DNA of 64,000 nucleotides from Candidatus Woesearchaeota archaeon (GCA_016203225.1 JACQNC010000008.1:231-64230); one strand, 5' to 3'. Numbered from the stretch's first letter, positions 1 to 22,029 are shown. Numbers and translations: made by a program. Notes: generated from the sequence alone by a model not told the origin.

Positions 1-1
1 G

Positions 2-256
2 CAAACTTTAAAATCTCAATATGGGTTTAGTTCAGGAGAAACCGTTGCTGAGAATATTTGGATGATAAGCGGCGGTCTTGCCAATTCAGATGAAGCATTA
101 ACTTCGTGGTTAGGTAGTCAAGGACATTATGCTAATCTATTCTATAGAGATCATGTCAAAGGAGCCATTGGGTGTTATGGACAATACTGCGTATTTAATG
201 GAGTTCATAATGATGCATATGGATTAGGAGCAGCTCCTTGCTCGATGTATGATTAA
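2..256 (+). CDS. CAP/SCP-domain protein, C-terminal part (starts before the window)
   Basis: Frame is open from base 2: ...GETVAENIWMISGG...EALTSWLGSQGHYANLF. AENI and W-x-x-S-x-G-H-x-x-N are typical CAP motifs. AT-rich. Confidence 0.75.
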   Translation, partial: QTLKSQYGFSSGETVAENIWMISGGLANSDEALTSWLGSQGHYANLFYRDHVKGAIGCYGQYCVFNGVHNDAYGLGAAPCSMYD

Positions 257-710
257 AATGGTAAAAAAAGAAACAACAATAACAGGAGCTACGGTTTTAG
301 GTATATTAATCCTGATCTATTTAATTAATGAAATCTGTAAAACAATTTTTGTGCCTTTACTGATAATTACGATTATATGCTTAATAGTGGCCATTATAAT
401 GAGTTTTCTTCAGACAGATTACATTCTGTACGCTTGGATTGGTGTAGGTATCCTACTTGTATTAACAATTATCTCCTATGGATGTGGCTATGGCTTTTAT
501 AATACGGAAATTGGAAAAACCCTTGTTGATGCAGGCAATACATCTTATGAAGCAGTCAATACCGTGAAAGAAGCTGAGCAAACTGCTGAAGATACAATAA
601 AAAATGTTTCAAAGCAAGTTATAGATGAAACAATTAATGCAACAAATCCAAATGACCCTAATATCAAGAATGTGGGGGACTTATCTAAACAACTCATAGA
701 TCTGAGTTAA
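249..710 (+). CDS. Membrane protein of unknown function (about 3 N-terminal TM segments)
   Basis: 153-aa ORF with hydrophobic N-terminal half. Overlaps the CAP gene stop by 8 nt. AT-rich. Confidence 0.65.
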   Translation: MIKMVKKETTITGATVLGILILIYLINEICKTIFVPLLIITIICLIVAIIMSFLQTDYILYAWIGVGILLVLTIISYGCGYGFYNTEIGKTLVDAGNTSYEAVNTVKEAEQTAEDTIKNVSKQVIDETINATNPNDPNIKNVGDLSKQLIDLS

Positions 711-819
711 TCTTAACTTACTTTATTTTGACAACATTCCCTTACTTTGACATTTCCGCAGATTTCTGAATTTTCCGCTTACTTTCATCCGGGATTTTCA
801 GAAATTCATCCAAATTTAG

Positions 820-842
820 TAACGCTTTTGAGGAAAGCGTTA
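820..842. terminator. Perfect 9-bp hairpin between convergent genes
   Basis: TAACGCTTT-tgagg-AAAGCGTTA. Confidence 0.4.
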
Positions 843-957
843 TTAGACGAGAATGTGTCAAATCCATTCGTAACCAGATTTTATCCATTTTCACGACGTG
901 GTAATAATAAGCACGGATTATAAATCTATCGTCTATTTACCATCAATCAGTGACTAT

Positions 958-3495
958 TTATAGCACAACTCCGTCGTATAGGAACTCTTTCACGTCCTTG
1001 CCGCCCGCGACAAGCCGTTTCACGACGGTGCACAGCTGGCTGTTGAATGGGTGGCCGCACTCGCCGTTCGTGCCACCTGAACACGTGGTCGAACAGCAGG
1101 TCTTCTGCGCTCCGAGATAGGCGTCGCGCGAGCCCGCGATGCGGTGCTGCTGCTTGTAGCTCGCGACCACGAGGTTCGCCAGTCCTTGGATCCTGTGTGT
1201 CCTGTTCTGGAACGCGTCGTATTGCGTGAACTGGATGCGGTCGAACGATTCCGCGTCAGCGTACGTGAAGTGCATCGAGGGCCGGTGGCATTCGCTCTCC
1301 TCGGCGAACCGGCTGCGGTTTCCGAGCCCGAGCAATGCCCCAGTGAACGTCTGGCCCGCGACGCGCTCCATCGCGCGCAGATACAGCATCTCCTGTATGG
1401 TGTAGCTCGGTTTCTCGTTCGGCGAGCGTTTGTAGTCGAAGATCATCGGGATGATCCGGCCGCCGATCACGCGGGCAAGCGCGTCGGCGTGGCCGAACCA
1501 GGTTATCATCGGGAGTTCGCCGTCCTCGGTCTCGGGGTTGGCGACGCTCGCCCACAGTTCGACCTCGGTCGATTTCAGCAACGCGTCATCGAGCGTCCAT
1601 AGCGGCCAGAGCGCGATCTCGTGGCGTTTCGTGCCAGCGATCGCCCATTTGTGGGGGATGATGTCGACAGGCAGTTTCGCTGGATCGATCTTCGCGAGGA
1701 TCCTCGCGACCGGGCATTCTGACGAGAATTCGCTCGGCCGGATCGAATAACGATCAGGCCGCGACGGCGTGACAGGCCACGGCTCGATCCTGCCAAGCGG
1801 TTGTTCTTTCCGGAGCCAGGCCTGCAATTTTGGATCGCCGAGCAGCCGGCGCAACGAGCGCGTCTGATACTCCCCTTTCTCGCCTATCAGCGCGACGGTC
1901 GCGTCCATGCGGTTGAGGAGCCGCATGTCGTCCTCCCATCGCGTGCACGCGTAGCCCTGCATGATGCTGTCCTCGCGCAGGATGTCGCGCTCGTCGGCTT
2001 CGCGCACCTGGCCGTTCTCGTCGCGGTACTGGATGCGTTTCCAGCGCAATTCCTTGAACACCCTCTCGGGGTCGACGAGTGGTTTTCCGTCGTACTTGCG
2101 CATCAGCGCTTTCCGCACGTCAGCGAGCGTGAACCTGTTGTCCGCGATGTCGCAGGCGCAGTGCTCGACACGGGAAACGTATCCGGGCGTCCTGCTGTTC
2201 TGCAGGTCGAGCGCCTTCAGCCCGGCACGCGAGCACTTGATGCGGCCGTTGTTCGGGCACGTCTCGCACGGTTCGTACACGGGCTCAGCAAGGCTCGCGG
2301 CAGGCACGGGCGTGATGAGACGCGGATGCGTCTTGGTGGTCTGAACCTGGGTCCTGTAGAGCGCGCCCATCAGACGTTCGATCGCGCTGCTGTCTGCCTC
2401 CTTGCGGACGGCCATTTTCGAGTTCTTCATGACTCCGTCGCCGAAATCATCGATCGCGACGCCGGTGAGCTTGCTTACGGACTGCATGATATTCATCTCG
2501 GGCGAGGAGCGTGACAGGAAGCATCGCAATGACGTCAGTCCGAGCACGTTCGCCATCGACGCGTACGCGGCAGCGATGACCTCGCGGTTGAACTCGACGT
2601 CCTTTCGCAGGACGCGGTACACTACGCGTTCAGTGACCTGCGCGAGTCTCTCCTCGTTTCCGAACAGCCGCTTGAGTTCGCCCAGTTTCTCCTCGTCCAG
2701 CGGCTCGCCTTCCTGGAACTTGCGCACGAGGTGCACCAAGCGTCTGCCGAACGCGTCCTTTGCCGAGTCGCTGTCTATGAGCGTGTCGCTGAACTGGTAG
2801 ATCGCCTTGCGCCACGCCTCGCTCGTTGGGTCCTTCGTCGTGGTGCCGAACGTGTCATCGATCCGTCCTTCCGTCGCTTTGATGACGTCGTCCAGCGAAT
2901 GCGTCAACGTACCTTCCTGCGTCGCGTGGAACGGGAGCATCACCGGCATGACCTGGACAAAGTGCACGTCGTCGTGCAGATCCCAGCGATACTTCTTCGC
3001 CAGGTCGCGGATGCCGAACAGGATAGCATCGGTCAAAAAGTTGCGCTCGCATGCGTAGTCGACACCGAGATAGCGCGGGTTGGCGTCACCTTGATCGATG
3101 CTGATCCCGGGGATGAAGAAGACCTGCTTGTCTTTCAGCGTCCCGAGTTTTTTCGCGAGTTCTTCGTGATAGGTCCTGTAGCGCTGCACGCCGCGCACGA
3201 TCTCGTCCTTCTTCGCCCATTCTTTCGTGCGTTCGAGGATGTGCTTGTACTTCGTGGACTCCAATCTCGTGTTCACGCGGCTGTTGAGCAAGGGTTCCAG
3301 CTGGAAGTACAATCGCGCGTGCTTGCTCGGGTCCGCGAGCCGCCAGATAGTGGGCGTGAGCCAGGAGACTGCCATTGGAGTGATGCGTGCCTTTAAGAGC
3401 GCGGAGACCTGTGCATACGAAGGCCAGCAAGGTCCGTTGCAAACGATCATGACCTGATGCAACGGACGCAGCGCTCGGTACGCATCACCTGTCAA
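958..3495 (-). CDS. Large protein with C-terminal Cas4-like PD-(D/E)XK nuclease domain; N-terminal ~580 aa unassigned
   Basis: IRPSEFSSECP...GTKRHE...GHADA...IFDYK...IQEMLY...CC-x3-C...C-x8-C. Start uncertain (TTG at 3495 or ATG at 3450). Confidence 0.7.
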   Translation of the reverse strand: MTGDAYRALRPLHQVMIVCNGPCWPSYAQVSALLKARITPMAVSWLTPTIWRLADPSKHARLYFQLEPLLNSRVNTRLESTKYKHILERTKEWAKKDEIVRGVQRYRTYHEELAKKLGTLKDKQVFFIPGISIDQGDANPRYLGVDYACERNFLTDAILFGIRDLAKKYRWDLHDDVHFVQVMPVMLPFHATQEGTLTHSLDDVIKATEGRIDDTFGTTTKDPTSEAWRKAIYQFSDTLIDSDSAKDAFGRRLVHLVRKFQEGEPLDEEKLGELKRLFGNEERLAQVTERVVYRVLRKDVEFNREVIAAAYASMANVLGLTSLRCFLSRSSPEMNIMQSVSKLTGVAIDDFGDGVMKNSKMAVRKEADSSAIERLMGALYRTQVQTTKTHPRLITPVPAASLAEPVYEPCETCPNNGRIKCSRAGLKALDLQNSRTPGYVSRVEHCACDIADNRFTLADVRKALMRKYDGKPLVDPERVFKELRWKRIQYRDENGQVREADERDILREDSIMQGYACTRWEDDMRLLNRMDATVALIGEKGEYQTRSLRRLLGDPKLQAWLRKEQPLGRIEPWPVTPSRPDRYSIRPSEFSSECPVARILAKIDPAKLPVDIIPHKWAIAGTKRHEIALWPLWTLDDALLKSTEVELWASVANPETEDGELPMITWFGHADALARVIGGRIIPMIFDYKRSPNEKPSYTIQEMLYLRAMERVAGQTFTGALLGLGNRSRFAEESECHRPSMHFTYADAESFDRIQFTQYDAFQNRTHRIQGLANLVVASYKQQHRIAGSRDAYLGAQKTCCSTTCSGGTNGECGHPFNSQLCTVVKRLVAGGKDVKEFLYDGVVL

Positions 3496-3501
3496 TACTT
3501 A

Positions 3502-3507
3502 TTTAAA
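3502..3507. promoter_or_regulatory. Palindromic TATA-like box (TTTAAA) in the 43-bp divergent spacer
   Basis: Only AT-rich element between the two divergent start codons; could serve both genes. Confidence 0.45.
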
Positions 3508-3538
3508 GCTTCTGACGTGTCCCTACTCTCGGATAGTT

Positions 3539-6358
3539 ATGGAATTATGGTTGGCGGGTGTGGACCAGGCGGCGCGGAACAACCAGCAGTTCATGCAGGT
3601 CTATGGCCGCACGCCGGAAGGCGTGGGCTACGGTCCTGTTCGTGTCCTCGCGGGCACGAGTTGGGTCAGCAAGGACGCCAAGGCGTACGAGGACGCGAAG
3701 CGCATCAAGGATGCGGTCGCCGAAGCGGTCACGGGTTCATTATGCGGCGCGAAGCCGTATGGAACGACAGCAAACCGCCGCTGGGTGGTGTGGGTGATGA
3801 CGTTCGATGACGCGCAGCGCACGCTGCTCTCGGACAAGTGGGGCCCGCAGTTCGAATCACTATCCTTATCCGACCGTGTCTACACGCGTCTCCACCTGCC
3901 AGAGCAACGCCTGGCGGTGAGGAAGGATCTCGAAGCGGCATTACGGGATCAACGCGAACTCCACGACACGCTCGCGACGGTCCACAGTGACTACCTGTTG
4001 CCGTTGCTCGCGGAGGGAGTCTGGCTCGAGGACGCGTTGCGCTGGCTGCACCAACCCGACAAGGACGCAGACAAGCTGTTGGGCCGGATCAGGACTGAGA
4101 AGAGAGCGAGGTTGGAGGCGTTTTATCGCGTGAACGCTGCCGCGTTGAGCAGAGACACGGCACCTGTCCTCGAGGACATGAATCGTCGCGCAGACGATCT
4201 CGAGGCGAAGCTGAAAGGGATCGCGCCCGAGAACTTCCTCGAGCGCTGCTGGACCGACATCGACGATCCGAACCCGATGCGCAGCATCATCTATCTCGCG
4301 AACAAGGACGGCATGCACATCATCCCGACTCCGAACAAGGACCGTCCCGAGATCGAGGTCAGATCGAGCGATCACTTGCTCCAGCGCAGGATATCATACG
4401 ACGAAGAGACCTCCTTGTGGTGGGAGGGCAGGACGCTGATCCATAGCCTCGCAGCCGGAGGCCCGCAAGGCTATGTGGTGTACACGATCTTCCCGACGAA
4501 AGCGACGAGACTTGAAGCAGGCGGAGTCACCGCAGAGGTGCGGAGCTTCAACAACGGTGAGCGCGACTGGGACGACTTGCGTCCGGTGAGCAGGCGCATG
4601 ATGTTCGAGGCCGCGAAAGTCATCAGGGCAGCAGAGCTGCGCATCACGCAGAATGGGCTCGGCTACGACAACCCGATGGCGAACAAGCCCGGTCTGTTCC
4701 CGGTCTGTTCGGACAACTCGGGTTGCCAGACGATCCCGTTCAGGCGCGGTATCATCGACACGTACGGCCGCCAGGGCAGCGCTGACGCTGTCGATTTCGA
4801 CCTGATGTGGATGGTGCGCGCCAACCTGATGGCGTTCCAGACCGACGCCAAGATCGAGACGACCTCTGCGTTCTCGCGCCTGTTCTTCGACCTAGGGCCG
4901 AAGTACGTCAAGCTCCATACTTACCAAGACCAGATCAAGCTGGCCGAGCGCGCCCGGAACGGCGATGAGGTTGCGACACTCGAGGACGCGCGCTACAACG
5001 TGGAGGACACTCGCGAGACGGAGCTCATCGCGGCCGCGTACGCGCCGATCCGGCTGAACATCGCGAGAGTCTGCAAGGTGCCGTACTTCGATGCGTTCAA
5101 CGAGAGCCCCAAGAGCATCGCGCTGTCTTACACGGACCGCGTCCACATGAGCGCCGTGCACGCGCCGCGCGACCGCCAGATGTACGCGGACTTCGATGAG
5201 GATAAGGCGATGGCGCGACTGTCTGACAAAGCGTTGGGCTGGAAGCACCGGCCGGGCCTGCACCAGGGCGTCCTCGTCGCGTATTACCCGTTCTCCGAGC
5301 ATCTCGCGCCGGTGCTGAGGAACGACCCGGCGATGGCCGCGATGCTTGATCTCGCGCAGAACGCCAAGAACCCTGTAGAGGCGTACATGTATCATCTCGT
5401 GTGCGAGGGCTGGGCTGGTGAGGTCCTGTGCGATATCGACCGCGTCAGGGAGTATCCTGGCTATGATAAGGTCATCTGGAGCAAGTACGGCAGGACCGCC
5501 GCGGATATCGAACGGGTGATGAACGAACGCATATCAGGGCTACCGCTACGGTTCGCGCACGCGAACGTCGTCAACCGCTACCAGAACCTGTTCTTCCTGC
5601 AGAACCTCGCTCCTGAAGAGGCGCGCTCGCGCGGCTTCGTCGTGTTCGGCGAGGCCGACGCGTTGAGCATCGCCAAGGAGTCGCTCACGTACAGGTTGGG
5701 CGGCGAGATCTGCAGTTCAGGCATCTCCATCCCGAGCGCGAAACGTCGTGTCGAGGCGCCCGGGACGAATCCTCGCTGCGCTTTCGAGATCGCCGCCGTG
5801 CGGGATGTCGTCGAGCGGTGCTTCGAGGATCCCGTCGACGCGATGCGGCGCGCGTTCGATTACGCGCACCGGCTCGCGTCAGGCGAGGCGGACCTCTCAT
5901 TGCTCGTCATGAAGGCCACGATGCACGAGGCACCACAGCATTCTACGCCGCAGCAGCAGCGCGCCCGTCGCGGGCGCGTCCTCGCGTCGTTCCCTGAGCT
6001 GAAGCCCGGCGATTCCGTGAATTATTACGTGGCTGACGTGAACGGCCGGGAGGCGTTCATGCGGTACAACCTCGCCGAGCGCTGCCCTGAGTTCTCTATT
6101 GATCCGTGGCTTGGCTGGTACCAGGACCGCATCTTCGGCATCACGGAGAACGTCAAGGAGTATGAGGACGGCACCGAAACGACCGCCAAGTCTCCATCGA
6201 CCGCGTACACGATAGCGAAGGCGCTCGTGCTCGGAAACGGCAGAAGCAAACAGGACGCGGAACGGCTACAGAAATTCCTTGCCGGCGAAGGGACTCCTGA
6301 GGAGTTCACCGCGTTCGTGAGATGCAGCATGAAGAACCGCGAACCGCGGCTGTTCTGA
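3539..6358 (+). CDS. Family-B DNA polymerase homologue, predicted catalytically inactive
   Basis: Colinear PolB landmarks: VYGRTPEG (N-terminal), NGLGYDNP (ExoII), YNVED (ExoIII), PGLHQGVLV (before motif A), RGFVVFGEADAL (in place of GF-x-V-x-YGDTDS), and thumb LKPGDSVNYYV. Motif A Asp, motif B KxxxNSxYG and ExoI DxE are not recognisable. Confidence 0.8.
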   Translation: MELWLAGVDQAARNNQQFMQVYGRTPEGVGYGPVRVLAGTSWVSKDAKAYEDAKRIKDAVAEAVTGSLCGAKPYGTTANRRWVVWVMTFDDAQRTLLSDKWGPQFESLSLSDRVYTRLHLPEQRLAVRKDLEAALRDQRELHDTLATVHSDYLLPLLAEGVWLEDALRWLHQPDKDADKLLGRIRTEKRARLEAFYRVNAAALSRDTAPVLEDMNRRADDLEAKLKGIAPENFLERCWTDIDDPNPMRSIIYLANKDGMHIIPTPNKDRPEIEVRSSDHLLQRRISYDEETSLWWEGRTLIHSLAAGGPQGYVVYTIFPTKATRLEAGGVTAEVRSFNNGERDWDDLRPVSRRMMFEAAKVIRAAELRITQNGLGYDNPMANKPGLFPVCSDNSGCQTIPFRRGIIDTYGRQGSADAVDFDLMWMVRANLMAFQTDAKIETTSAFSRLFFDLGPKYVKLHTYQDQIKLAERARNGDEVATLEDARYNVEDTRETELIAAAYAPIRLNIARVCKVPYFDAFNESPKSIALSYTDRVHMSAVHAPRDRQMYADFDEDKAMARLSDKALGWKHRPGLHQGVLVAYYPFSEHLAPVLRNDPAMAAMLDLAQNAKNPVEAYMYHLVCEGWAGEVLCDIDRVREYPGYDKVIWSKYGRTAADIERVMNERISGLPLRFAHANVVNRYQNLFFLQNLAPEEARSRGFVVFGEADALSIAKESLTYRLGGEICSSGISIPSAKRRVEAPGTNPRCAFEIAAVRDVVERCFEDPVDAMRRAFDYAHRLASGEADLSLLVMKATMHEAPQHSTPQQQRARRGRVLASFPELKPGDSVNYYVADVNGREAFMRYNLAERCPEFSIDPWLGWYQDRIFGITENVKEYEDGTETTAKSPSTAYTIAKALVLGNGRSKQDAERLQKFLAGEGTPEEFTAFVRCSMKNREPRLF

Positions 6359-7035: not shown

Positions 7036-7278
7036 ATGGGATTATGCAAATTCGTGAAACGGATGGTGCTGTACGGCGGGATCACTGTCGCGGGATTGTA
7101 CGCGATGGCGAGCTGCCAGCACAAGCCAGAAGCGCAGCCGAGCCGACTAGAGCGCGTCGCGGATGAGGGACTAAAGCAGGTCCAGACAGGCATCGGCGCC
7201 GGCCACAAAGGACTGGACTATCTTGACAAGCGAGTCAATGACGCGAGAGAGTACTTGAACGTGGAGGAACGGAAATGA
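7036..7278 (+). CDS. Small membrane-anchored hypothetical protein
   Basis: 80 aa, N-terminal hydrophobic stretch ending in ...AMASC. ATGA overlap with the next ORF. Confidence 0.55.
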   Translation: MGLCKFVKRMVLYGGITVAGLYAMASCQHKPEAQPSRLERVADEGLKQVQTGIGAGHKGLDYLDKRVNDAREYLNVEERK

Positions 7279-8444
7279 TAGCTACACAAGCGCCGGGAGA
7301 GAGCGAGCATCCTGCTCAGGCGAACGACCAGGAAGAGCGATTGCGCGGCGAGTTCGTGCAGTTCGTGCTGGCCACGGGCCAGATGCACAGCAGGTACACG
7401 GCGGAAGCTCTGTGGGAGAGCACATCGCCCGACGAACGGATGATGTATATCGACCATGTCAGGGTCAAGTGCGACGACCGCAAGCCCGCGGAGGCGCCGC
7501 GGCCGTCCGTGCTGGACACGCTCACGGAACGCATCGGCAAGCTAACCGTCAACAACGGCATCGACACGCTACTCACGAAGAACGAGAAGGTCGCGTGTCT
7601 GTCCTTCGGAGAGCGGGTCTGGTATCACGCCCTGCAGGCGACGGACAGCATGCGGCTCGGCAAGAAAGGGGGCAAAGCCGAGAAGTACGTCGCGAAGATG
7701 GAGCCCGAGATATCGTTCCGTTATACGATGGACACGATAGGGCTCTACCAGCGTTCGAACGAGGAGGTCGGAAGGGATCTCGAGACCTCGCACGCGCAGC
7801 AGGGCGCCGCGCGTCTCCGGCGGAACGAGATCACCAAGCGCATCATCGACCAGAAGGAGGAGTATGATTCGCTGGAGAGGTTCTGCCAGACATCCGAGAT
7901 CAGCAAGCGCAGGGAGATCGCGAAGCATGCGGATGGCGTGTTCGACTACGCTTTCCTGCGCGAGCTGAACGACGGCAAGGTGGACGATGTCGAGCCTGCC
8001 CAGCAGAAGATGGAGGGCTTGCTCGATGAGATCAACGCGGACTGGCTGCTCTTCCAGCTCGAGGACCAGACGTACCGGAGTTGGAAGTGCACTGTGCAGG
8101 CGTACGAGCGGGTGTCGCGCAGGCTCAAGGTGGACCAGCGCTATCTCGAGGCGTTCTGCAAGCGCACCAAGACCGAGGCGAACGTCGACGTGCTCAAACG
8201 AGCTCTCGATTTCCTGCAGAAGTACGAAGGCTTCGTGGCAGGGATCAGCAGGCTCAGCAGGACGTACGATTCGTTCAACGTGTCGGTGGGCCAGTCAGGG
8301 CTGAATCCGGGCTATCTCACGGGGATCGCGAGCCAGGTGCATGGCAAGGACGTGGCCGACCGCCTGAAATCGCTGTACGGCCAGAACCGGCGCTCAGCGA
8401 CGGACATAATGCAGATGGTAAAGAAGAGGATATGCGAGGACTGA
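7275..8444 (+). CDS. Hypothetical, largely helical protein
   Basis: 389-aa ORF with genome-typical codon use, coupled to the upstream ORF. No motif recognised. Confidence 0.65.
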   Translation: MIATQAPGESEHPAQANDQEERLRGEFVQFVLATGQMHSRYTAEALWESTSPDERMMYIDHVRVKCDDRKPAEAPRPSVLDTLTERIGKLTVNNGIDTLLTKNEKVACLSFGERVWYHALQATDSMRLGKKGGKAEKYVAKMEPEISFRYTMDTIGLYQRSNEEVGRDLETSHAQQGAARLRRNEITKRIIDQKEEYDSLERFCQTSEISKRREIAKHADGVFDYAFLRELNDGKVDDVEPAQQKMEGLLDEINADWLLFQLEDQTYRSWKCTVQAYERVSRRLKVDQRYLEAFCKRTKTEANVDVLKRALDFLQKYEGFVAGISRLSRTYDSFNVSVGQSGLNPGYLTGIASQVHGKDVADRLKSLYGQNRRSATDIMQMVKKRICED

Positions 8445-10422: not shown

Positions 10423-11202
10423 ATGCGCACGGCAACGGATATGGGCGTGGAAGAGACATCTGGAAGGTTGTGTTTGGCGCAGACATTGGTCGAGCGCGTC
10501 TCTGATTGCATCGAGGGGGCGATAGTCGGAGGTTCTGTCGGGTACGGCAACGCGAATGCGGGGTCTGACATCGATCTGCCGGTTCTCGCGATCCCTGAAC
10601 GGGCGTGGGAAGCAATCCGGAGACTCGGGTTCGTGGCGCCGTCCGAAGCGCAGGTGCTGTTCCGCACGCGCGAGATTGACTGTCTCTATCTCTCGGATGT
10701 GTTGGGTGGCATCGAGGTGAACTGCTTCATCTACGATCCCGATGCGTATTCAAACTTTGTTTCAGCAGCGACGCAGGACGGATTGCGCATCTTCCGCTCA
10801 AAAAAACCGCGCGATATGATCAGGAACCCCGGGTTCGACGGCGTGCCTCTTGAGATCCACCGCGAGGTTCAAGAGGTATCCGGAGGTTACGTTTACCGGA
10901 TGCCGACGCTCGCCGGTGGGAACTGGTACATGGCCGCTGTCCGTCAGGATTATTTCTGCTCAGGAAAGATCCTCTTCCAGCGCGACGGTCGCCTGGCCGC
11001 GCTCGAGCAAGCCGTGTGGACGTCTGCCATTGCGCATCTCGTCAAGGAGCACGGGCGCGACGTCGATCTGGGACGCTTCAACATCCTCAACGCTCATTGG
11101 ACGCACCACAACAAACCGGGCAGACTTCCTGAATCCGTCGCGCGCGGGATCGTGGAACGAACCAAGAAGGAGCTCGAGAAGTATCTCCGCAGCCAACAGT
11201 AA
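10423..11202 (+). CDS. Putative nucleotidyltransferase (Pol-beta superfamily)
   Basis: GGSVGYGNANAGSDIDL matches GS-x-x-x-G...SD-x-D. Confidence 0.6.
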   Translation: MRTATDMGVEETSGRLCLAQTLVERVSDCIEGAIVGGSVGYGNANAGSDIDLPVLAIPERAWEAIRRLGFVAPSEAQVLFRTREIDCLYLSDVLGGIEVNCFIYDPDAYSNFVSAATQDGLRIFRSKKPRDMIRNPGFDGVPLEIHREVQEVSGGYVYRMPTLAGGNWYMAAVRQDYFCSGKILFQRDGRLAALEQAVWTSAIAHLVKEHGRDVDLGRFNILNAHWTHHNKPGRLPESVARGIVERTKKELEKYLRSQQ

Positions 11203-15271: not shown

Positions 15272-17095
15272 ATGGTCCTGAACCTCGGCTTTGTTAGTAT
15301 CCAGAATCCTTCGCAGCTCTACTGGCTGCTCTTGGCCATCCCTTTGATCATCTTCTACCTGATCAGGCCCAAGCCGAAGGAGAAGGAGATCCCTTCGTTG
15401 ATGTTCTTCATGAGGGCGACAGGGCGCAACAAGCTACTGAGTTTCTTCCGCATCTTCGTGCGCGACTTCATGATGCTCGTGCAACTCCTCATCATCCTCG
15501 CGTTGGCAGCTACGCCGAGCCAGCCGAGCAGCAAGGTCGAGCATGACATCGCCGCGGCGAACACGGTCATCGTCCTCGACGGATCTGCGAGCATGCAGAC
15601 GATCGAGGACGGCGACACGCGCTTCGAGCTCGCCATCGACGCAGCGAAGGACTCGTTGAGCACGCACAACACGATCATCGTCGCATCGGAACGCGCAGTC
15701 CTCGGAGCGCAGGACGTGAACGACCGCGACGCGACAGGATACCTCAACTTGCTGAAACCGGGTGACTCGGGATCGCGGATCGGTGACTCCATAATCCTCG
15801 CAGGAGAGATATTGCGCGGCAAGGAAGGCCGTGTCGTCGTCATCAGCGACTTCATCTCAACCGCAGGCGTAGAGCCAGAGCTCGCGATGGCGGTCCTGCG
15901 CTCTCGGGGGCTTGTCGTGAACGCCATCAACGTCGCGGAAGGCGACAAGAGAAATGTAGGTTTCGTCGACCTCTTGGTCGAAGACGACGTAACTACAGCT
16001 TATGTCAAGAACTTCAACGACGAGGAAGCCACGGTCACGATGCGCATCGCAGAGCAGGACAAGCAGCTAACTATCTCTGCGAAAGGCGTCGAGCCTTATG
16101 TATTCCAGACCTTGCCTGGCATCAACGAGCTCAAGATCGTGGACGATGACGATTTCCCTGTCGACAACGTCGTCCGCACGAGCGCTCCGGAACGACGGAC
16201 CGTCAAGGTGCTCCTGATCTCGAACAAACCGAGCGTGTTCCTCCAGAACGCGCTTCAGGCGTCGCCGAGCGTCGAGCTCACCATCACGCAACCGCCTGTG
16301 ATCACGAAGGGCGATTACGATGTCTACGTCGTCCATGACGTCGACAAGGCAGAGGTGCTCGCAGGCACGTACGAGGACCTGTTGGATAAGGCCGAGGACG
16401 GCAAGACAGTCATCGTAGCCGCTCAAGACAGCACGTTAGACATCGATTACAAGGGTCTGGTGCCGTTCTATTTCATGGGTTTGGGCGAGAACGGCTTCAG
16501 CGCTGTCGACACGCCGACCAGGTTCACCAAGAACATCGAGTTCGGCAAGCTGCCCACGTACTTCACGACAAACCTGCAGCAGGGCGTCGTTCCGGTAGTC
16601 ACCGCCGGCAACGGCTCGGGCATCATCACGGCCGCGACCGTTCCAGGTGGCGGCAAGCTGATCTGGTACGGCATCCTCGAGAAAGGCAGCGATTTCAAGT
16701 TCTCGCCTTACTACCCGATATTCTGGCACGAACTCCTAAAGTTCGCGACAGACCAGAAGGACATCCGCGGCATGAACGACCGCACCGGCAACACGTACCT
16801 GCTCGACAAGACCCTTGACGTGAGCACGCCTTCGGGACCTCAGACCACCAACCGGTTGAGTTTCGACAAGGCAGGATTGTACAGATTGCCCGACCGCACG
16901 ATCGCGGTCAACCTTCTCAGCGAGAAGGAATCCGACGTCAACCCGCGCGTCGACATCGGTGAGAGCGCCGGCGAGATCGAGCTCAGGCCCGTGCGCGAGA
17001 CGCGCACCATGGCGTGGGAAGTCTGGCTCATCGCGGCGTCATTCGTAATACTCTTCGTCGAACTGCTCTACGTGAAGCTGCGGGGTGACGTGTGA
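15272..17095 (+). CDS. BatA-like N-terminus plus vWA-domain membrane protein
   Basis: N-terminal TM with LIRPKPKEKEIPSLMF; MIDAS LDGSASM and VISDF; C-terminal TM. Confidence 0.85.
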   Translation: MVLNLGFVSIQNPSQLYWLLLAIPLIIFYLIRPKPKEKEIPSLMFFMRATGRNKLLSFFRIFVRDFMMLVQLLIILALAATPSQPSSKVEHDIAAANTVIVLDGSASMQTIEDGDTRFELAIDAAKDSLSTHNTIIVASERAVLGAQDVNDRDATGYLNLLKPGDSGSRIGDSIILAGEILRGKEGRVVVISDFISTAGVEPELAMAVLRSRGLVVNAINVAEGDKRNVGFVDLLVEDDVTTAYVKNFNDEEATVTMRIAEQDKQLTISAKGVEPYVFQTLPGINELKIVDDDDFPVDNVVRTSAPERRTVKVLLISNKPSVFLQNALQASPSVELTITQPPVITKGDYDVYVVHDVDKAEVLAGTYEDLLDKAEDGKTVIVAAQDSTLDIDYKGLVPFYFMGLGENGFSAVDTPTRFTKNIEFGKLPTYFTTNLQQGVVPVVTAGNGSGIITAATVPGGGKLIWYGILEKGSDFKFSPYYPIFWHELLKFATDQKDIRGMNDRTGNTYLLDKTLDVSTPSGPQTTNRLSFDKAGLYRLPDRTIAVNLLSEKESDVNPRVDIGESAGEIELRPVRETRTMAWEVWLIAASFVILFVELLYVKLRGDV

Positions 17096-19524
17096 CGGTA
17101 ACCCAGCAGCTCATCGACGGCTGGACGTTCTTCCTAAGCCACGTCGAACACCCGAAGTACATATGGGCGATCCCGTTCCTGATCATCGCCATCTTCTTCC
17201 TGCTGCGGCGCGATTTCGTCAAGCTCGCCGAGGACATGGTCGCCCGACGCGCACGGAGACTGCAGCAATGGGTGATGCTTTTCACGCGCTCGCTAATCCT
17301 CGCGGCATTGGTGCTCGCGCTGGCCTCGCCGTTCATGGAGCGCACCAAGGTCGTCGAAGGCGATCCGTTCCTCAAGATTCTGGTCGACCATTCGCAGTCG
17401 ATGGACATCTATTCCGACGACATAGCTGAGACGCTGAAGGCGAAGCTCGAGCAGGTGATCAACGTCGAACTGCACAGCATCGCATCCGGGCCGACATCGA
17501 CCATAGGTGAGGGCATCCTGAACAGCGTGAAGGACGGCGACAATGTCGTGCTCGTCACCGACGGACAGGTCACCGGCGGCGCTTCTCTCGGAGACGTGGC
17601 GTTGTTCGCGGCGAGCCACAACATCACGTTCAATGCCATCGAGCTCCAGCCAACGGGCGACGACGCATGGGTGCTCGTCTCCGGCCCGGAGAAGACCGTC
17701 GCGAACGTCGACAACACGTTCACGGTCTCGACCGGCTGGGCGTCGGGCGGGAAGAAGGACGTCCACGTCACAGTCAAGGTCGACGGCAAGATCGTCCTAG
17801 ACGTGACAAGCCCTGAACGCACGCAACTGATCACGCAGAAGTTCGAGGAGGGTTACCACCAGATCGAGGCGCGCGTGCAGGACGGGGACTTCATCGCGGA
17901 CAACAACGTCTTCTACAAGACGGTCAAGGTCGTGCCGAAGCCGAAGGTCGTGTTGTGGACGCCTGCGCCGGATTCTCCGATGGAGACATTGTTGCGCCAG
18001 GTCTACGACGTCACGACGACGGCTTCCTTGCCAGCTGACCTCTCGCCTTACTATTCGGTCGTCACGAACGATCTTTCGGGCTCGTCAATCTCTGACGATG
18101 ACACGGCGCGCTTGAGCGAGTTCATCGAGGACGGCAACGGCCTGTTCGTCATCGGCGGCAAGGGCTCGTACAACAACGGCGGCTACCGCAACAGCTACTT
18201 CGAGACATTGCTCCCGGTCGTGGTGGGCACGCCGGGCAAGGAGCCGGGCGATGTCAACATCGTCATCCTGGTCGATGCCTCTCAATCTGTGGGCTCTGAA
18301 CAGGGCGGAGGCATAGTGATCGCGAAGAAGCTCACGCTCGACATCATCGGCCAGATGAGCCCCAACGTCAAGGTCGGAGTGACCGCGTTCAGGAACATCG
18401 CGTACATCGTGGCCCCATTGGGCTACAAGTACGAGCACGTGGGCTTGGAGGACAAGGTCACGCAGATCTACGGTGCGTACAGCAGCAAGATGCATCTCGG
18501 CATCCTGCAGAGCATAGACCTTCTGAAGGGCGCGCAGGGCAGCAAGAACATAATCATCATCAGCGACGGCATGCTGTTCCCGAACGACCAGACTGCGGCG
18601 CGCGACGCGACGCTGCTGGCGCGCAAGGACGGCATCAAGGTCTACACAGTGAGTGCGGCTGTCGGTGACGACGCGTTCGTCGCCGACCGCACCGATGAGG
18701 ATCTCCTGAAGAGCGTCGCGCTCGCCGGCGGCGGCATCTACTTCAAGGCGCGCGACACGAGCAAGTTCAACCTGCTCTTCGGCGACGTCAAGCCGCCGGA
18801 TCCAAAAGCGGTCCTAGACTGGGGCGTCTCGGTGCTGGACGCCAACCACTTCATCACGCAGGACCTGAACGTCACGGCGACGATTTACGGCTACAACGAG
18901 GTTGCGCCAAAGACGACCGGCAGGATGCTCGTCGTCACGTCGACCGGCGAGCCGCTCGTCACGATCTGGCATCTCGGGCTCGGTCGCGTCGTCTCGTACA
19001 GCACTGACGACGGTTCTGCGTGGGCGGGCCAACTGCTCGGGCCGGGCAACAGTCGGCTCGTCATCCGCAGCATGAACTGGGCCAACGGCGACCCCGACAG
19101 GAAGCGTTCCGACCTCGTCGACATAAGGGACACGCGCGTGAACGAGGCGACGACGCTCACGATCAAGAGCGCGAAGCAGCCGACAGCGCAGGGATTGGCG
19201 TTCTTCAAGGTCAAGCAGGACACGTACGAAGCGAGCATCACGCCTACGGAGACCGGCTTCCACTCGATCCTCGGCGCGACGTATGCGGCGAACCATCCTG
19301 CGGAGCTTTCGCCTCTGGGGCTGAGCAGGGAGCTCGATCTCTTGGTCGGCAGCACCGGCGGGGACTATTTCAGCGCAGACGACGCGGACAAACTGGTCGA
19401 GTTCGCCCAGACGCACGCCGTGAAGACCATCCGTGGCAAGGACTACTTCAGATGGCACCTGGCCGTCCTTGCCGCGATACTGTTCCTTTTGGAGATACTA
19501 TTGAGGAGGATGATGAGAAGATGA
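17092..19524 (+). CDS. vWA-domain membrane protein with glutamine-amidotransferase-like domain
   Basis: LVDHSQSM, VTDGQ, GGKGSY...LLPV, LVDASQSV, ISDG, GLGRVV; terminal TM segments. Confidence 0.85.
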   Translation: MTVTQQLIDGWTFFLSHVEHPKYIWAIPFLIIAIFFLLRRDFVKLAEDMVARRARRLQQWVMLFTRSLILAALVLALASPFMERTKVVEGDPFLKILVDHSQSMDIYSDDIAETLKAKLEQVINVELHSIASGPTSTIGEGILNSVKDGDNVVLVTDGQVTGGASLGDVALFAASHNITFNAIELQPTGDDAWVLVSGPEKTVANVDNTFTVSTGWASGGKKDVHVTVKVDGKIVLDVTSPERTQLITQKFEEGYHQIEARVQDGDFIADNNVFYKTVKVVPKPKVVLWTPAPDSPMETLLRQVYDVTTTASLPADLSPYYSVVTNDLSGSSISDDDTARLSEFIEDGNGLFVIGGKGSYNNGGYRNSYFETLLPVVVGTPGKEPGDVNIVILVDASQSVGSEQGGGIVIAKKLTLDIIGQMSPNVKVGVTAFRNIAYIVAPLGYKYEHVGLEDKVTQIYGAYSSKMHLGILQSIDLLKGAQGSKNIIIISDGMLFPNDQTAARDATLLARKDGIKVYTVSAAVGDDAFVADRTDEDLLKSVALAGGGIYFKARDTSKFNLLFGDVKPPDPKAVLDWGVSVLDANHFITQDLNVTATIYGYNEVAPKTTGRMLVVTSTGEPLVTIWHLGLGRVVSYSTDDGSAWAGQLLGPGNSRLVIRSMNWANGDPDRKRSDLVDIRDTRVNEATTLTIKSAKQPTAQGLAFFKVKQDTYEASITPTETGFHSILGATYAANHPAELSPLGLSRELDLLVGSTGGDYFSADDADKLVEFAQTHAVKTIRGKDYFRWHLAVLAAILFLLEILLRRMMRR

Positions 19525-19533
19525 AAATCCACA

Positions 19534-19637
19534 CCCGTTCCCCACAATTGCCGTCCTTGCCACTATTGTCGTCGCGTTATCGATGGAAGCGACAACGCCT
19601 CAATCGTGCCGGGGGAGACGGCGCAGGGGAACGCCAA
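19534..19637 (+). repeat. Dispersed palindromic repeat, copy 2 (divergent)
   Basis: TCAATCGTGCCGGGGGAGA (19600-19618) is identical to 6439-6457. The copy follows the stop at 19524. Confidence 0.7.
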
Positions 19638-19654
19638 GAACGTCGGAGGACACC

Positions 19655-20137
19655 ATGAGCTACATCACACGAAACGCCAACCTGATACTGTTGTTCCTGA
19701 TCATCATCATCTCAGGCTCATTGGTGGGTGCGACGGTCTACTTCCAGGACCGGTTCACGGACGTCAACGAGGAGTACGACCAGAAGCTCGCAGAGCTCAA
19801 GAACGTCACTGAACAGGTCGAGACATATCGTGACGTGCTCCAGAAGGCCCAGCTAGAGCTCGAGCTGAAGCAGAGCCGCGAGGAGCAGTTCACCGAGAAG
19901 TACACGGAGACGAAGGCGACTGCGGAGGAACTCGCGCAGACGAAGGCCGAGCTCGAAAAGGACGTGCGGGATCTGACTACGCAGGTGAATTCGTTGACCT
20001 TGCAGGTCACGGGCCTTCAGTCGTCGCTCAACATCGAGAAGGCGAAAGTGGCCAACCTTCAGGACGATAATGCCGACCTCCAGGACAAGGTGGACTGCCT
20101 GGAGAGCACAGCTGACAGTTCGGAGAGCAACTGTTGA
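19655..20137 (+). CDS. Membrane-anchored coiled-coil protein
   Basis: GGAGG RBS, N-terminal TM, then E/K/Q-rich heptads. Confidence 0.75.
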   Translation: MSYITRNANLILLFLIIIISGSLVGATVYFQDRFTDVNEEYDQKLAELKNVTEQVETYRDVLQKAQLELELKQSREEQFTEKYTETKATAEELAQTKAELEKDVRDLTTQVNSLTLQVTGLQSSLNIEKAKVANLQDDNADLQDKVDCLESTADSSESNC

Positions 20138-20961: not shown

Positions 20962-21014
20962 AGCAAACGTTTATAAATCAACAACCGCTCAAAAACCGGA
21001 AAAGCAGGTGACGT

Positions 21015-21953: not shown

Positions 21954-22029
21954 TTGCGAACCGGATGCCCACGCCGCGGTATCGGCCGGTTCGAAATCTC
22001 GAAGAACCGAACTGGCGGGAGGTTCTTCG

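What the first reader, a model, noticed from the sequence alone, without database searches (positions are those of the whole stretch)
3539..6358. Full-length PolB with all polymerase motifs and ExoI degenerate, but an intact reading frame
Seen: motif C reads FGEADA (only the second Asp kept). The motif A position reads GVLVAYYPFSEH (no Asp, no SLYP). No KxxxNSxYG is present. ExoI reads YVVYTIF, while ExoII (NGLGYDNP, ~4652) and ExoIII (YNVED, ~4994) remain. The thumb aligns well by eye with archaeal PolB. The N-terminal part is longer than in a typical PolB3 and includes a helical insert (approx. aa 115-240). A 939-codon open frame with genome-typical codon use argues for a maintained non-catalytic role rather than a pseudogene (inference).
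Basis: partly seen in the sequence, partly recalled or inferred. Interest (0 to 1): 0.65.

Follow-up and report, generated by a model that had tools for sequence, protein, structure and literature searches.

The report
Polymerase-dead PolB exonuclease with nuclease partner
This archaeal gene encodes a full-length family B DNA polymerase look-alike that has lost its DNA-copying site but kept an intact proofreading exonuclease site, and it always sits next to a Cas4-like nuclease gene, which suggests an undescribed DNA-trimming module in DPANN archaea.

Summary
No Pfam, NCBIfam or PDB sequence search recognises the protein. An exhaustive HMMER search found 41 relatives. Their profile hits archaeal PolB (E 7e-26), and an AlphaFold model (pLDDT 92.7) matches full-length PolB structures (Pyrococcus abyssi PolB, E 1e-15). 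So PolB ancestry and loss of the polymerase motifs are confirmed: the motif A Asp is Tyr582 and the motif B Lys/Asn are gone.

ExoI is not degenerate: the true ExoI is SYDEET (D288/E290), 24 residues upstream of 'YVVYTIF'. All five DEDDy residues are conserved across the family. 'FGEADA' is probably not motif C. The motif C hairpin is more likely NVVNRYQNLFF (Y681/N683).

The exonuclease domain is the most constrained part (dN/dS 0.06; whole gene 0.15). In all 17 loci with upstream DNA, the gene is divergently paired with an unannotated ~800-aa protein, or its two halves. The C-terminal half of that protein is a PD-(D/E)xK Cas4-like nuclease. The family occurs in Woesearchaeota-type genomes.

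Best reading: a polymerase-dead, exonuclease-competent PolB that works with the partner nuclease on DNA ends. This is a new variant of the known 'inactivated PolB' theme.

The parts
3539..6358 (+). PolB-like gene, 939 aa: N-terminal domain, DEDDy exonuclease, degenerate palm and fingers, thumb, C-terminal helical tail
   Evidence: ORF. 41 relatives. Family profile against PDB archaeal PolB, E 7e-26. AlphaFold model with pLDDT 92.7 and pTM 0.92. Foldseek top hits are all PolBs.
3539..4318 (+). N-terminal module (aa 1-260): beta-rich domain with a helical insert (helices aa 129-228, nt 3923-4222). It is a separate ~265-aa gene in some relatives.
   Evidence: Secondary structure of the model. Stand-alone homologues P0008, P0012, P0013 and P0015. 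L002:4761-5558 is 39% identical over aa 1-259. Split forms occur in L002, L015 and L019.
4394..4411 (+). True ExoI motif SYDEET (D288, E290), intact
   Evidence: Nearly invariant D and E across 27 relatives, invariant among the 12 close ones. Aligned to the DIE of reference PolBs by hhalign and HMMER. Translation checked.
4472..4492 (+). It is actually beta strand 3 of the exonuclease fold and is not a catalytic motif.
   Evidence: Model strand E311-316, downstream of the ExoI strand E284-292. Alignment.
4652..4675 (+). ExoII NGLGYDNP (N372, Y376, D377), intact
   Evidence: D377 is nearly invariant. Aligned to the NxxxFD of PolBs.
4994..5008 (+). ExoIII YNVED (Y486, D490), intact
   Evidence: Y486 and D490 are invariant in all 27 aligned relatives. 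Aligned to the YxxxD of PolBs.
5255..5305 (+). Motif A remnant GLHQGVLVAYYPFSEHL: strand then helix. The catalytic Asp position is Y582 and SLYPS is lost.
   Evidence: hhalign pairs PGLHQGVLVAYYP with KGLHCNTVVEDYKSLYP of a reference PolB. The column is never acidic in the family. Model strand E573-582 followed by helix 585-593.
5327..5533 (+). Shortened fingers-like helical region. The motif B Lys and Asn are absent. Only K649-Y650-G651 (nt 5483-5491) may survive as the 'YG' of motif B. Conserved acidic residues E628 and D632 sit on the long helix.
   Evidence: Helices 597-665 in the model. Y650 is invariant among the 12 close members and nearly invariant across the 27; D632 is nearly invariant across the 27. 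No KxxxNSxYG is present. Equating KYG with motif B is an inference.
5564..5602 (+). Probable motif C remnant: hairpin NVVNRY-QN-LFFLQ, with Y681 and N683 in place of the two Asp of DTD
   Evidence: This is the only strand-turn-strand hairpin in the palm (E676-681 / E684-688). It fits the order strand(A)-helix-fingers-hairpin-helix-strand. Distant relatives carry YDGDLVAV, TGDLVFV, TGDFIYL and TGDYVFI here. N679 and F686 are invariant in the close clade. The placement is an inference: sequence scoring cannot decide it.
5645..5662 (+). More likely the strand after motif C that carries conserved palm carboxylates in PolBs. hhalign does pair it with YGDTDS, so this stays an open alternative.
   Evidence: It lies in the middle of the long strand E701-712 in the model. 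Reference PolBs show (D/E)x(D/E)(A/G/T) on the strand before KKRYA, for example RB69 MDREAIA. hhalign pairs it with motif C, but with no significance for this sub-region.
5681..5749 (+). SLTYRL..SSGISIPSAKRR: counterpart of the PolB KKRYA strand (Y718) and the KGLE motif (G728)
   Evidence: G728 is invariant and Y718 is aromatic in most relatives. The relative P0036 aligns NGKIISPGIDI with Pfu 600 EEGKVITRGLEI.
5771..6178 (+). Thumb domain (aa 745-880)
   Evidence: HMMER second stretch: family profile against Pfu residues 622-732 and KOD residues 623-732.
6179..6358 (+). C-terminal three-helix tail ending in ...EPRLF. It is the least constrained part.
   Evidence: dN/dS 0.45. Helices 888-932. 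Several relatives end in Q-x-x-L-F.
3376..3538 (.). Divergent intergenic region. It holds a TTATTTAAAG box about 35 nt upstream of the PolB-like ATG.
   Evidence: Sequence read directly. Promoter function is an inference.
958..3375 (-). Conserved partner gene (805 aa from the ATG at 3375; the listed TTG ORF reaches 3495). It has an N-terminal half of unknown fold, a Cys-rich linker and a C-terminal PD-(D/E)xK nuclease.
   Evidence: It lies directly upstream and divergent in all 17 loci that have upstream DNA. dN/dS 0.154. The window protein has no Pfam or PDB hit.
958..2070 (-). Partner C-terminal half: Cas4/RecB-like PD-(D/E)xK nuclease. Motifs: Cys at 1714-1716, GHAD 1483-1494, DYK 1429-1437, QEMLY 1381-1395, Cys cluster 1030-1083.
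   Evidence: Invariant C, E, G..D, D.K, Y, C and C plus nearly invariant Q in 12 sequences. Split homologues hit Pfam PDDEXK_1 at E 2e-6, 7e-4, 0.012 and 0.014 and PADLOC Cas4 at 5e-4. Coordinates checked.

Best explanation
The gene encodes a derived family B DNA polymerase. It keeps the whole PolB architecture (N-terminal domain, DnaQ-type exonuclease, palm, fingers, thumb) but has lost the polymerase active site.

Lost polymerase features:
- The motif A Asp is Tyr582.
- The motif B Lys and Asn are gone.
- The motif C Asp-x-Asp is most likely Tyr681-Gln-Asn683.

The complete DEDDy 3'-5' exonuclease site is kept: D288, E290, D377, Y486, D490.

Proposed mechanism: the dead palm and thumb still clamp duplex DNA, in effect in a permanent 'editing mode'. 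They feed the 3' end into the exonuclease site, so the protein acts as a DNA-end-binding 3'-5' exonuclease rather than a polymerase.

It works as a unit with the divergently transcribed partner. The partner's C-terminal half is a Cas4/RecB-type PD-(D/E)xK nuclease with conserved cysteines, which could bind an Fe-S cluster. Together they would give a two-nuclease DNA-end processing module, for repair, recombination or flap trimming, that is chromosomally encoded in Woesearchaeota-type (DPANN) archaea.

Shown here: PolB homology and fold; loss of the polymerase motifs; conservation of the exonuclease pentad; purifying selection; strict gene pairing; the PD-(D/E)xK nature of the partner.

Inferred: exonuclease activity; physical complex formation; nuclease polarities; the cellular role.
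For: - PolB ancestry. The family profile hits Pfu, KOD, Tgo and related PolBs over the exonuclease domain and thumb: E 7e-26 with 27 sequences and 3.6e-12 with the 12 close ones. hhalign against six annotated PolBs gives probability 97.7%, E 1.9e-12, 470 columns. The AlphaFold model has pLDDT 92.7. The top Foldseek hits are all PolBs, with the best hits being the P. abyssi PolB editing-mode complexes (4flt and related entries) at E 1e-15 and TM 0.62. Viral PolBs are hit too.
- Exonuclease intact. D288/E290, D377 and Y486/D490 are conserved and align to ExoI-III. The exonuclease domain has the lowest dN/dS, 0.057, against 0.145 for the whole gene.
- Polymerase dead. No acidic residue occupies the motif A position in any of the 27 relatives, and motif B is absent.
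- Selection. dN/dS is 0.13-0.22 in three further pairs.
- Partner. It is present, divergent and adjacent in 17 of 17 loci, either fused or split into two genes. PDDEXK_1 and Cas4 hits and invariant catalytic residues support the nuclease assignment.
- Native gene. Codon use is typical of the genome. The family is not found in IMG/VR viral contigs.
Against: - No biochemical or expression data exist. No RNA run holds the locus.
- The model's coordinates could not be inspected, so active-site geometry rests on secondary structure and alignments, not on superposition.
- The placement of motif C is unresolved. hhalign pairs FGEADA with YGDTDS. If that is right, one catalytic Asp (D707) survives.
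- The partner's N-terminal half has no recognisable fold, so the module may do something other than end processing.
- The window partner itself does not reach any Pfam threshold. Its nuclease assignment is transitive, through homologues.
- Physical interaction is inferred only from gene order.
Confidence: 0.55

Rival explanations
1. Purely non-catalytic scaffold. The protein binds DNA or replisome partners, as the dead C-terminal half of Pol epsilon or archaeal PolB2 were proposed to do, and neither active site is used.
For: The polymerase motifs are lost. The whole protein, including the dead palm and the thumb, is under purifying selection (dN/dS 0.12-0.20). Precedents exist: PolB2 and Pol epsilon C-terminal half (PMC4104785, PMC2669801).
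Against: All five DEDDy residues are conserved across relatives that share as little as 16-20% identity. The exonuclease domain is the most constrained part (0.057). In known dead PolBs (PolB2) the exonuclease residues are also replaced (PMC4104785).
Confidence: 0.15
2. Same two-nuclease chemistry but a different role. The module degrades DNA wholesale, either as a defence against invading DNA or to salvage nucleotides in a host-dependent DPANN cell, rather than repairing the cell's own DNA.
For: The partner resembles Cas4-type nucleases found in defence contexts (PADLOC Cas4 hits at 5e-4). Its hosts are Woesearchaeota-type MAGs and groundwater metagenomes. DPANN dependence on external nucleotides is background knowledge, not tested here. 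The genomic neighbourhood varies between loci.
Against: No PADLOC defence model matches the PolB-like protein or the window partner convincingly. No defence-island neighbours were seen. The neighbours are housekeeping or DNA-metabolism genes: S8e, ThrRS, PCNA, RNR, UDG, MutS. There is one copy per locus, with native codon use.
Confidence: 0.2
3. It is still a DNA polymerase that uses a non-canonical active site. For example, D707/E705 of FGEADA plus another carboxylate could replace the motif A Asp, much as primer-independent PolBs tolerate loss of the first motif C Asp.
For: hhalign pairs FGEADA with YGDTDS. D707 is present in most relatives. B2 and piPolB groups with a single motif C Asp can be active (PMC7544198).
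Against: The motif A Asp position is Tyr, His or Phe in nearly all relatives and is never acidic. The motif B Lys and Asn that bind the dNTP are absent, and the finger helix carries conserved acidic residues E628 and D632 instead. The hhalign pairing has no statistical support on its own (E 0.32). FGEADA lies mid-strand, not at a hairpin tip.
Confidence: 0.05
4. Remnant of a mobile element or virus replication module (casposon-like or viral PolB plus Cas4-like nuclease) that has been domesticated or is decaying.
For: PolB together with Cas4-like nucleases occurs in archaeal viruses and casposons (PMC4046053). The neighbourhood of the pair differs between distant loci.
Against: No relatives were found in 2.9 million viral contigs. 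No Cas1, integrase or capsid genes appear among the called neighbours. No terminal inverted repeats flank the pair. GC and codon use are native. Purifying selection is strong.
Confidence: 0.05

Closest known systems
Archaeal replicative family B DNA polymerase, PolB3 type (Pyrococcus/Thermococcus Pol: Pfu, KOD, Tgo, 9N, P. abyssi)
   Same: The domain order and fold are the same over the whole length (Foldseek E 1e-15, TM 0.62). The exonuclease domain and thumb are detectably homologous by sequence profile. The DEDDy ExoI-III motifs are identical in kind.
   Different: - Motifs A, B and C are lost.
- The fingers are shortened and carry acidic rather than basic conserved residues.
- There is a ~100-residue helical insert in the N-terminal domain.
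- An extra C-terminal helical tail is present.
- In some genomes the N-terminal domain is a separate gene.
- Pfam PolB models do not recognise it.
PolB2 / Dpo2 group of 'inactivated' archaeal PolBs (Rogozin 2008; Makarova 2014, PMC4104785)
   Same: It is an archaeal PolB paralogue with replaced polymerase catalytic residues, kept under selection, and probably linked to DNA repair through a conserved gene neighbourhood.
   Different: In PolB2 the exonuclease centre is disrupted too, and the conserved partners are an inactivated RadA and arCOG07300. Here the exonuclease centre is intact and the partner is a Cas4-like PD-(D/E)xK nuclease protein. No RadA-like gene is adjacent.
C-terminal inactivated polymerase-exonuclease module of eukaryotic Pol epsilon (PMC2669801), and poxvirus F12 (PMC4304020)
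   Same: These are precedents for PolB folds kept after loss of polymerase chemistry.
   Different: Both have lost exonuclease chemistry as well and serve as scaffolds. They have no nuclease partner.
Cas4 / AddB / Dna2-type PD-(D/E)xK nucleases with a Cys cluster (comparison for the partner's C-terminal half)
   Same: The motif order is the same: N-terminal Cys, E, GxxD, (D/E)xK, QxxxY, C-terminal cysteines. There are PDDEXK_1 and Cas4 profile hits through homologues.
   Different: It is fused to, or adjacent to, a ~320-440-aa domain of unknown fold. It is not next to CRISPR-cas genes or a helicase. The fourth Cys is not invariant. The window protein is too divergent to hit any model directly.

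Membership tests
Family B DNA polymerase (structural superfamily) | Overall architecture: N-terminal domain, 3'-5' exonuclease, palm, fingers, thumb | tested here: met
   AlphaFold model with pLDDT 92.7. The Foldseek top 50 are all PolBs, best 4flt_A at E 9.7e-16 and TM 0.62 on the target. hhalign gives probability 97.7% over 470 columns.
Family B DNA polymerase (active enzyme) | Motif A DxxSLYPS with the catalytic Asp | tested here: not met
   The Asp position aligns to Y582. The column is Y, H, F or another non-acidic residue in all 27 relatives.
Family B DNA polymerase (active enzyme) | Motif B KxxxNSxYG on the fingers (dNTP binding) | tested here: not met
   No such motif is present. Only K649-Y650-G651 may correspond to the YG. 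The Lys and Asn positions are not conserved.
Family B DNA polymerase (active enzyme) | Motif C (Y)GDTDS hairpin with the catalytic Asp | tested here: inconclusive
   The structural hairpin at 676-688 reads RYQN, with no Asp. hhalign instead pairs FGEADA with GDTDS, which would keep D707. Sequence scoring cannot decide.
Family B DNA polymerase (Pfam DNA_pol_B / DNA_pol_B_exo1) | Score above the Pfam gathering threshold | tested here: not met
   There are 0 Pfam hits at E<=1 for the window protein. Only 2 of 27 relatives reach DNA_pol_B_exo1; one is P0036 at 8.9e-12.
Family B DNA polymerase (active enzyme) | Template-directed dNTP incorporation | not testable with these tools
   This needs a primer-extension assay.
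DnaQ-like DEDDy 3'-5' exonuclease | ExoI DxE, ExoII NxxxFD, ExoIII YxxxD, all present and in order on the DnaQ fold | tested here: met
   D288/E290, N372/D377 and Y486/D490 are invariant or nearly so. They align to PolB ExoI-III. The strand and helix order fits.
DnaQ-like DEDDy 3'-5' exonuclease | Metal-dependent 3'-5' exonuclease activity | not testable with these tools
   This needs an enzyme assay with a D288A/E290A control.
PolB2 / Dpo2 inactivated archaeal PolB | [quoted passage not shown] | tested here: not met
   The exonuclease pentad is intact. The family definition is taken from PMC4104785.
PolB2 / Dpo2 inactivated archaeal PolB | Operon with an inactivated RadA-family gene and arCOG07300 (~90-aa helical protein) | tested here: not met
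   The neighbours are the Cas4-like partner, S8e and an orphan. No RadA Pfam family appears among the called genes of the related loci.
Cas4 / PD-(D/E)xK nuclease (partner protein) | Catalytic motifs E, GxxD, (D/E)xK and QxxxY | tested here: met
   E169, G193/D196, D212/K214 and Y230 are invariant and Q226 is nearly invariant in a 12-sequence alignment. In window coordinates these include GHAD, DYK and QEMLY.
Cas4 / PD-(D/E)xK nuclease (partner protein) | Profile match above threshold | tested here: inconclusive
   The window partner has no hit. The homologue L014:5710-6828 scores 28.4 bits against a cut-off of 22 for PDDEXK_1. Others score 7e-4 to 0.014. PADLOC Cas4 scores 5e-4 for the L007 homologue.
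Cas4 / PD-(D/E)xK nuclease (partner protein) | Four-Cys Fe-S cluster | tested here: inconclusive
   Three Cys are invariant (C119, C330, C347 in A8 numbering). The fourth is variable. Cluster binding cannot be tested here.
Casposon / self-synthesising element | Cas1 integrase and terminal inverted repeats around a PolB | tested here: not met
   No Cas1 or integrase family appears among the neighbours in 10 annotated loci. There are no flanking inverted repeats. There are no viral-contig relatives.

The most novel reading that the evidence does not exclude
A DPANN-specific DNA-end processing machine with three components: a polymerase-dead but exonuclease-active PolB that clamps a DNA end in permanent editing mode, a Cas4/Dna2-like Fe-S nuclease for the opposite strand, and a protein of unknown fold. 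The C-terminal Q-x-x-L-F peptide may tether it to PCNA. It would substitute for canonical resection or flap-processing systems in reduced archaeal genomes, and would be the first natural 'exonuclease-only' PolB.
Probability: 0.25. Interest if true: 0.75.

Novelty: new variant of a known kind. Interest (0 to 1): 0.6.

Why it matters
Inactivated PolB paralogues are known (PolB2, the Pol epsilon C-terminal half, poxvirus F12). In those cases both active sites are degraded and the proteins are thought to be scaffolds.

Here the polymerase site is erased, while the proofreading exonuclease is preserved and is the most constrained part of the gene. The gene is also locked to a Cas4-like nuclease gene across a family so divergent that no curated model recognises it.

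If the exonuclease is active, this would be a natural example of a replicative polymerase turned into a dedicated nuclease. It would add a new DNA-metabolism module to poorly understood DPANN archaea. It would also annotate three families of 'hypothetical proteins'. Finally, it shows how a misplaced motif can reverse a functional inference.

Tried and rejected
- Direct searches with the window protein found nothing usable: Pfam, NCBIfam and PDB phmmer gave no hit, and PHROGs gave only phrog_403 'DNA polymerase exonuclease subunit' at E 0.15.
- The word-indexed homologue search returned only one 84%-identical protein, both with the single sequence and with the 42-sequence alignment. The exhaustive HMMER search was needed.
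- AlphaFold with the 2-sequence alignment failed (pLDDT 29.7). The 42-sequence alignment worked.
- A palm-only family profile against the PDB gave no hits.
- hhalign of the palm sub-region alone was not significant (E 0.32).
- My own anchored profile-profile dynamic programming, meant to choose between the two motif C placements, gave negative scores for both and only a small difference. It is not decisive.
- The partner, whole and as its N-terminal half, gave nothing against the PDB or Pfam.
- Pseudogene: rejected on dN/dS.
- Mobile element or virus: no viral-contig relatives, no flanking repeats, native composition.
- Defence system: no convincing PADLOC match for the window proteins.
- Expression: no RNA runs hold the locus.
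- tRNA and Rfam scans of the window found nothing.


Full report
**1. The observation**

The ORF 3539-6358 (+) exists as described: ATG start, 939 codons, TGA stop.

The window is an archaeal chromosome fragment. It carries ribosomal proteins S8e and S19e, ThrRS, Cbf5, proteasome alpha and a NOG1-type GTPase. GC is about 0.59. It comes from groundwater metagenomes.

The gene's GC3 (0.815) and codon usage (r = 0.91 against 12 other genes of the window) are typical of the genome.

**2. Is it a PolB?**

Not by any direct search. Pfam and NCBIfam give no hit at E<=1. PDB phmmer gives only noise. PHROGs gives a faint 'DNA polymerase exonuclease subunit' match at E 0.15. The word-indexed protein search found a single 84%-identical homologue, P0001.

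An exhaustive HMMER scan of 1.84 billion representatives found 41 relatives.
- A profile of 27 long relatives hits Pfu PolB at E 7.4e-26. KOD, Tgo, 9N, Deep Vent and P. abyssi PolBs follow at E 1e-16 to 1e-24. The match falls in two collinear stretches: the exonuclease domain (Pfu 135-399) and the thumb (Pfu 622-732). Pol delta follows at about 1e-9.
- The 12 closest relatives alone still give E 3.6e-12, so the link does not depend on contamination by distant members.
- hhalign against an alignment of six annotated PolBs gives probability 97.7% and E 1.9e-12 over 470 columns. The six are a Methanomethylovorans plasmid PolB, a Deinococcus PolB, two Salinibacter phage PolBs, E. coli Pol II and RB69 gp43.

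AlphaFold failed with two sequences (pLDDT 29.7). With the 42-sequence alignment it gave pLDDT 92.7 and pTM 0.92. Foldseek then returned only PolBs, from both the PDB and the viral library. The best hit is P. abyssi PolB bound to DNA in editing mode (4flt_A: E 9.7e-16, TM 0.62 on the target, 12% identity).

PolB ancestry and a full-length PolB fold are therefore established.

**3. The motifs**

*Exonuclease.* The family alignment shows a nearly invariant D-x-E at D288/E290 (SYDEET). It lies on the first strand of the exonuclease domain (model strand 284-292) and aligns to the DIE of real PolBs. ExoII (N372...Y376-D377) and ExoIII (Y486...D490) were placed correctly, and Y486 and D490 are invariant in the alignment of 27 long relatives. 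The DEDDy pentad is therefore complete, contrary to the finding.

*Motif A.* hhalign pairs PGLHQGVLVAYYP with KGLHCNTVVEDYKSLYP. This puts the catalytic Asp at Y582. The column is never acidic in any relative. The model shows the expected strand (573-582) followed by a helix (585-593).

*Motif B.* There is no KxxxNSxYG. Only K649-Y650-G651, at the end of a helix, may be the surviving 'YG'; Y650 is invariant among the 12 close relatives and nearly invariant across the 27. The long finger-like helix carries conserved acidic residues (E628, D632), not the basic ones that bind dNTP.

*Motif C.* Two placements are possible.
That sub-region has no significance on its own (E 0.32). My anchored profile scoring gave negative scores for both options.
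- The model favours another site. The only strand-turn-strand hairpin of the palm is 676-681/684-688 (NVVNRY-QN-LFFLQ). This gives the canonical palm order: strand(A), helix, fingers, hairpin(C), helix, strand. FGEADA lies in the middle of the next long strand (701-712).
- Distant relatives carry YDGDLVAV, TGDLVFV, TGDFIYL and TGDYVFI at the hairpin tip. These are remnants of DTD.
- FGEADA fits the (D/E)x(D/E)(A/G/T) strand that precedes KKRYA in the reference PolBs, for example RB69 MDREAIA.
- Downstream anchors agree. P0036 aligns NGKIISPGIDI with Pfu EEGKVITRGLEI. That equates the invariant G728 with the Gly of KGLE, and Y718 with the Tyr of KKRYA.

I put about 70% on Y681/N683 being the motif C positions. 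Under either placement the motif A Asp and motif B are missing, so a canonical polymerase site cannot form.

**4. Selection**

Against the 84%-identical orthologue (L001), dS is 0.72 and dN/dS is 0.145.

| Region | dN/dS |
|---|---|
| Exonuclease domain | 0.057 |
| Thumb | 0.124 |
| N-terminal module | 0.155 |
| Palm/fingers | 0.195 |
| C-terminal tail | 0.45 |
| S8e (neighbouring gene, for comparison) | 0.060 |

Three further orthologue pairs give 0.13-0.22. The gene is not a pseudogene, and the exonuclease is the most constrained part.

**5. Architecture and relatives**

In some genomes they are encoded as a separate ~265-aa gene directly upstream of a ~630-670-aa core (L002, L015, L019). 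The window protein is therefore the fused form.

Short relatives lack the insert, and one of them, P0036 (693 aa), still reaches Pfam DNA_pol_B_exo1.

Relatives come from Woesearchaeota MAGs, one MAG labelled Methanosarcinales, and metagenomes. None was found in 2.9 million viral contigs.

**6. The partner**

A gene of 800-870 aa lies immediately upstream on the opposite strand (window 958-3375). It is 47% identical in L002 and 85% in L001, with dN/dS 0.154.

HMM searches on all fetched loci show this gene, or two genes that correspond to its N- and C-terminal halves, directly upstream and divergent in all 17 loci that include upstream DNA. This includes the most distant branches (L007, L014, L021, L022, L024).

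The C-terminal half has the Cas4/RecB-type PD-(D/E)xK signature, conserved in 12 sequences: Cys, E, GHAD, DYK, QxxxY and C-terminal cysteines. Split homologues hit Pfam PDDEXK_1 (E 2e-6, above the gathering score; also 7e-4, 0.012 and 0.014) and PADLOC Cas4 models (5e-4).

The N-terminal half has no detectable relatives in Pfam or the PDB.

**7. Interpretation**

The best-supported reading is a polymerase-dead, exonuclease-competent PolB that acts together with a Cas4-like nuclease.

The retained thumb and palm would hold duplex DNA and present the 3' end to the DEDDy site. The model's best structural matches are PolB complexes in editing mode, which is suggestive only. The partner would act on the other strand or on flaps.

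Weak contextual hints point to DNA metabolism:
- PCNA and ribonucleotide reductase lie next to the module in L022.
- A DHHA1 (RecJ/GAN-like) gene and UDG lie nearby in L021.
- MutS and a methyltransferase-type DNA-binding gene lie nearby in L007.
- A Q-x-x-L-F peptide recurs at the extreme C-terminus. It could be a clamp-binding motif.

Activity, complex formation and cellular role are inferred, not shown.

**8. Comparison with known systems**

The closest structural relatives are the PolB3-type replicative polymerases.

The closest concept is the 'inactivated PolB' of archaea (PolB2/Dpo2). That group has both centres disrupted and is linked to an inactivated RadA and arCOG07300 (PMC4104785). 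Neither feature holds here.

The survey of PolB diversity (PMC7544198) and full-text searches turned up no description of an exonuclease-intact, polymerase-dead PolB paired with a Cas4-like nuclease.

I therefore classify it as a new variant of a known kind.

**9. Verdict**

Corrections to the finding:
- ExoI is intact.
- Motif C was probably misplaced.
- The likely role is catalytic (an exonuclease), not non-catalytic.
- The unit of function is a conserved two- or three-gene module.

Interest is 0.6.

Noticed in passing
window 1-900 (ORF 249-710, +): There is a sharp compositional break. GC is 0.34 here against about 0.6 in the rest of the window. The 153-aa membrane-like ORF has GC3 0.26 and codon usage unrelated to the other genes (r = -0.14). 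This could be foreign DNA or an assembly join.
   Followed up: no
window 6340-6355 (C-terminus ...EPRLF); relatives P0005, P0011, P0033, P0035, P0036; stand-alone N-modules P0008, P0012, P0013, P0015: Many family members end in Q-x-x-L-F (QKTLF, QMSLF, QLSLF, QLKLF). The separate N-terminal-module proteins end in G(I/F)(A/S)RLF(E/G/A). This could be a short clamp- or partner-binding peptide. A PCNA gene lies next to the module in L022:3023-3766.
   Followed up: partly
L002:4761-7533; L015:6001-8680; L019:2-2241: In these loci the PolB-like protein is split into two genes, at the boundary between the N-terminal domain and the exonuclease domain. The partner is likewise fused in the close clade and split into two genes in distant clades (L007, L014, L021, L022, L024).
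   Followed up: yes
window 2146-2259 (-), partner aa ~373-410: There is a Cys-rich linker (C373, C381, C406 invariant among the six fused partners of alignment A5) between the two halves of the partner. It is missing where the partner is split into two genes. It may be a small metal-binding element.
   Followed up: no
window 7275-8444 (+): This is a 389-aa orphan ORF downstream of S8e. It has no family hits, is conserved next to S8e in L001 (376 aa) and is under purifying selection (dN/dS 0.20).
   Followed up: partly
window 15272-22881 (+): This is a MoxR AAA+ ATPase / DUF58 / BatA-VWA gene cluster (Bat-like aerotolerance-type operon) in an archaeal genome.
   Followed up: no
window 38007-61999 (+): There is a run of very large predicted surface proteins: Ig-like/PKD/HYR repeats, an S8 subtilase of 1134 aa, and a 2121-aa protein with fn3/Ig-like domains. 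Several 650-1000-aa ORFs without any Pfam hit are interspersed.
   Followed up: no
window 10423-11202 (+): This is a 259-aa ORF with a weak nucleotidyltransferase (Pol beta-type NTP_transf_2) signature, below the Pfam threshold.
   Followed up: no
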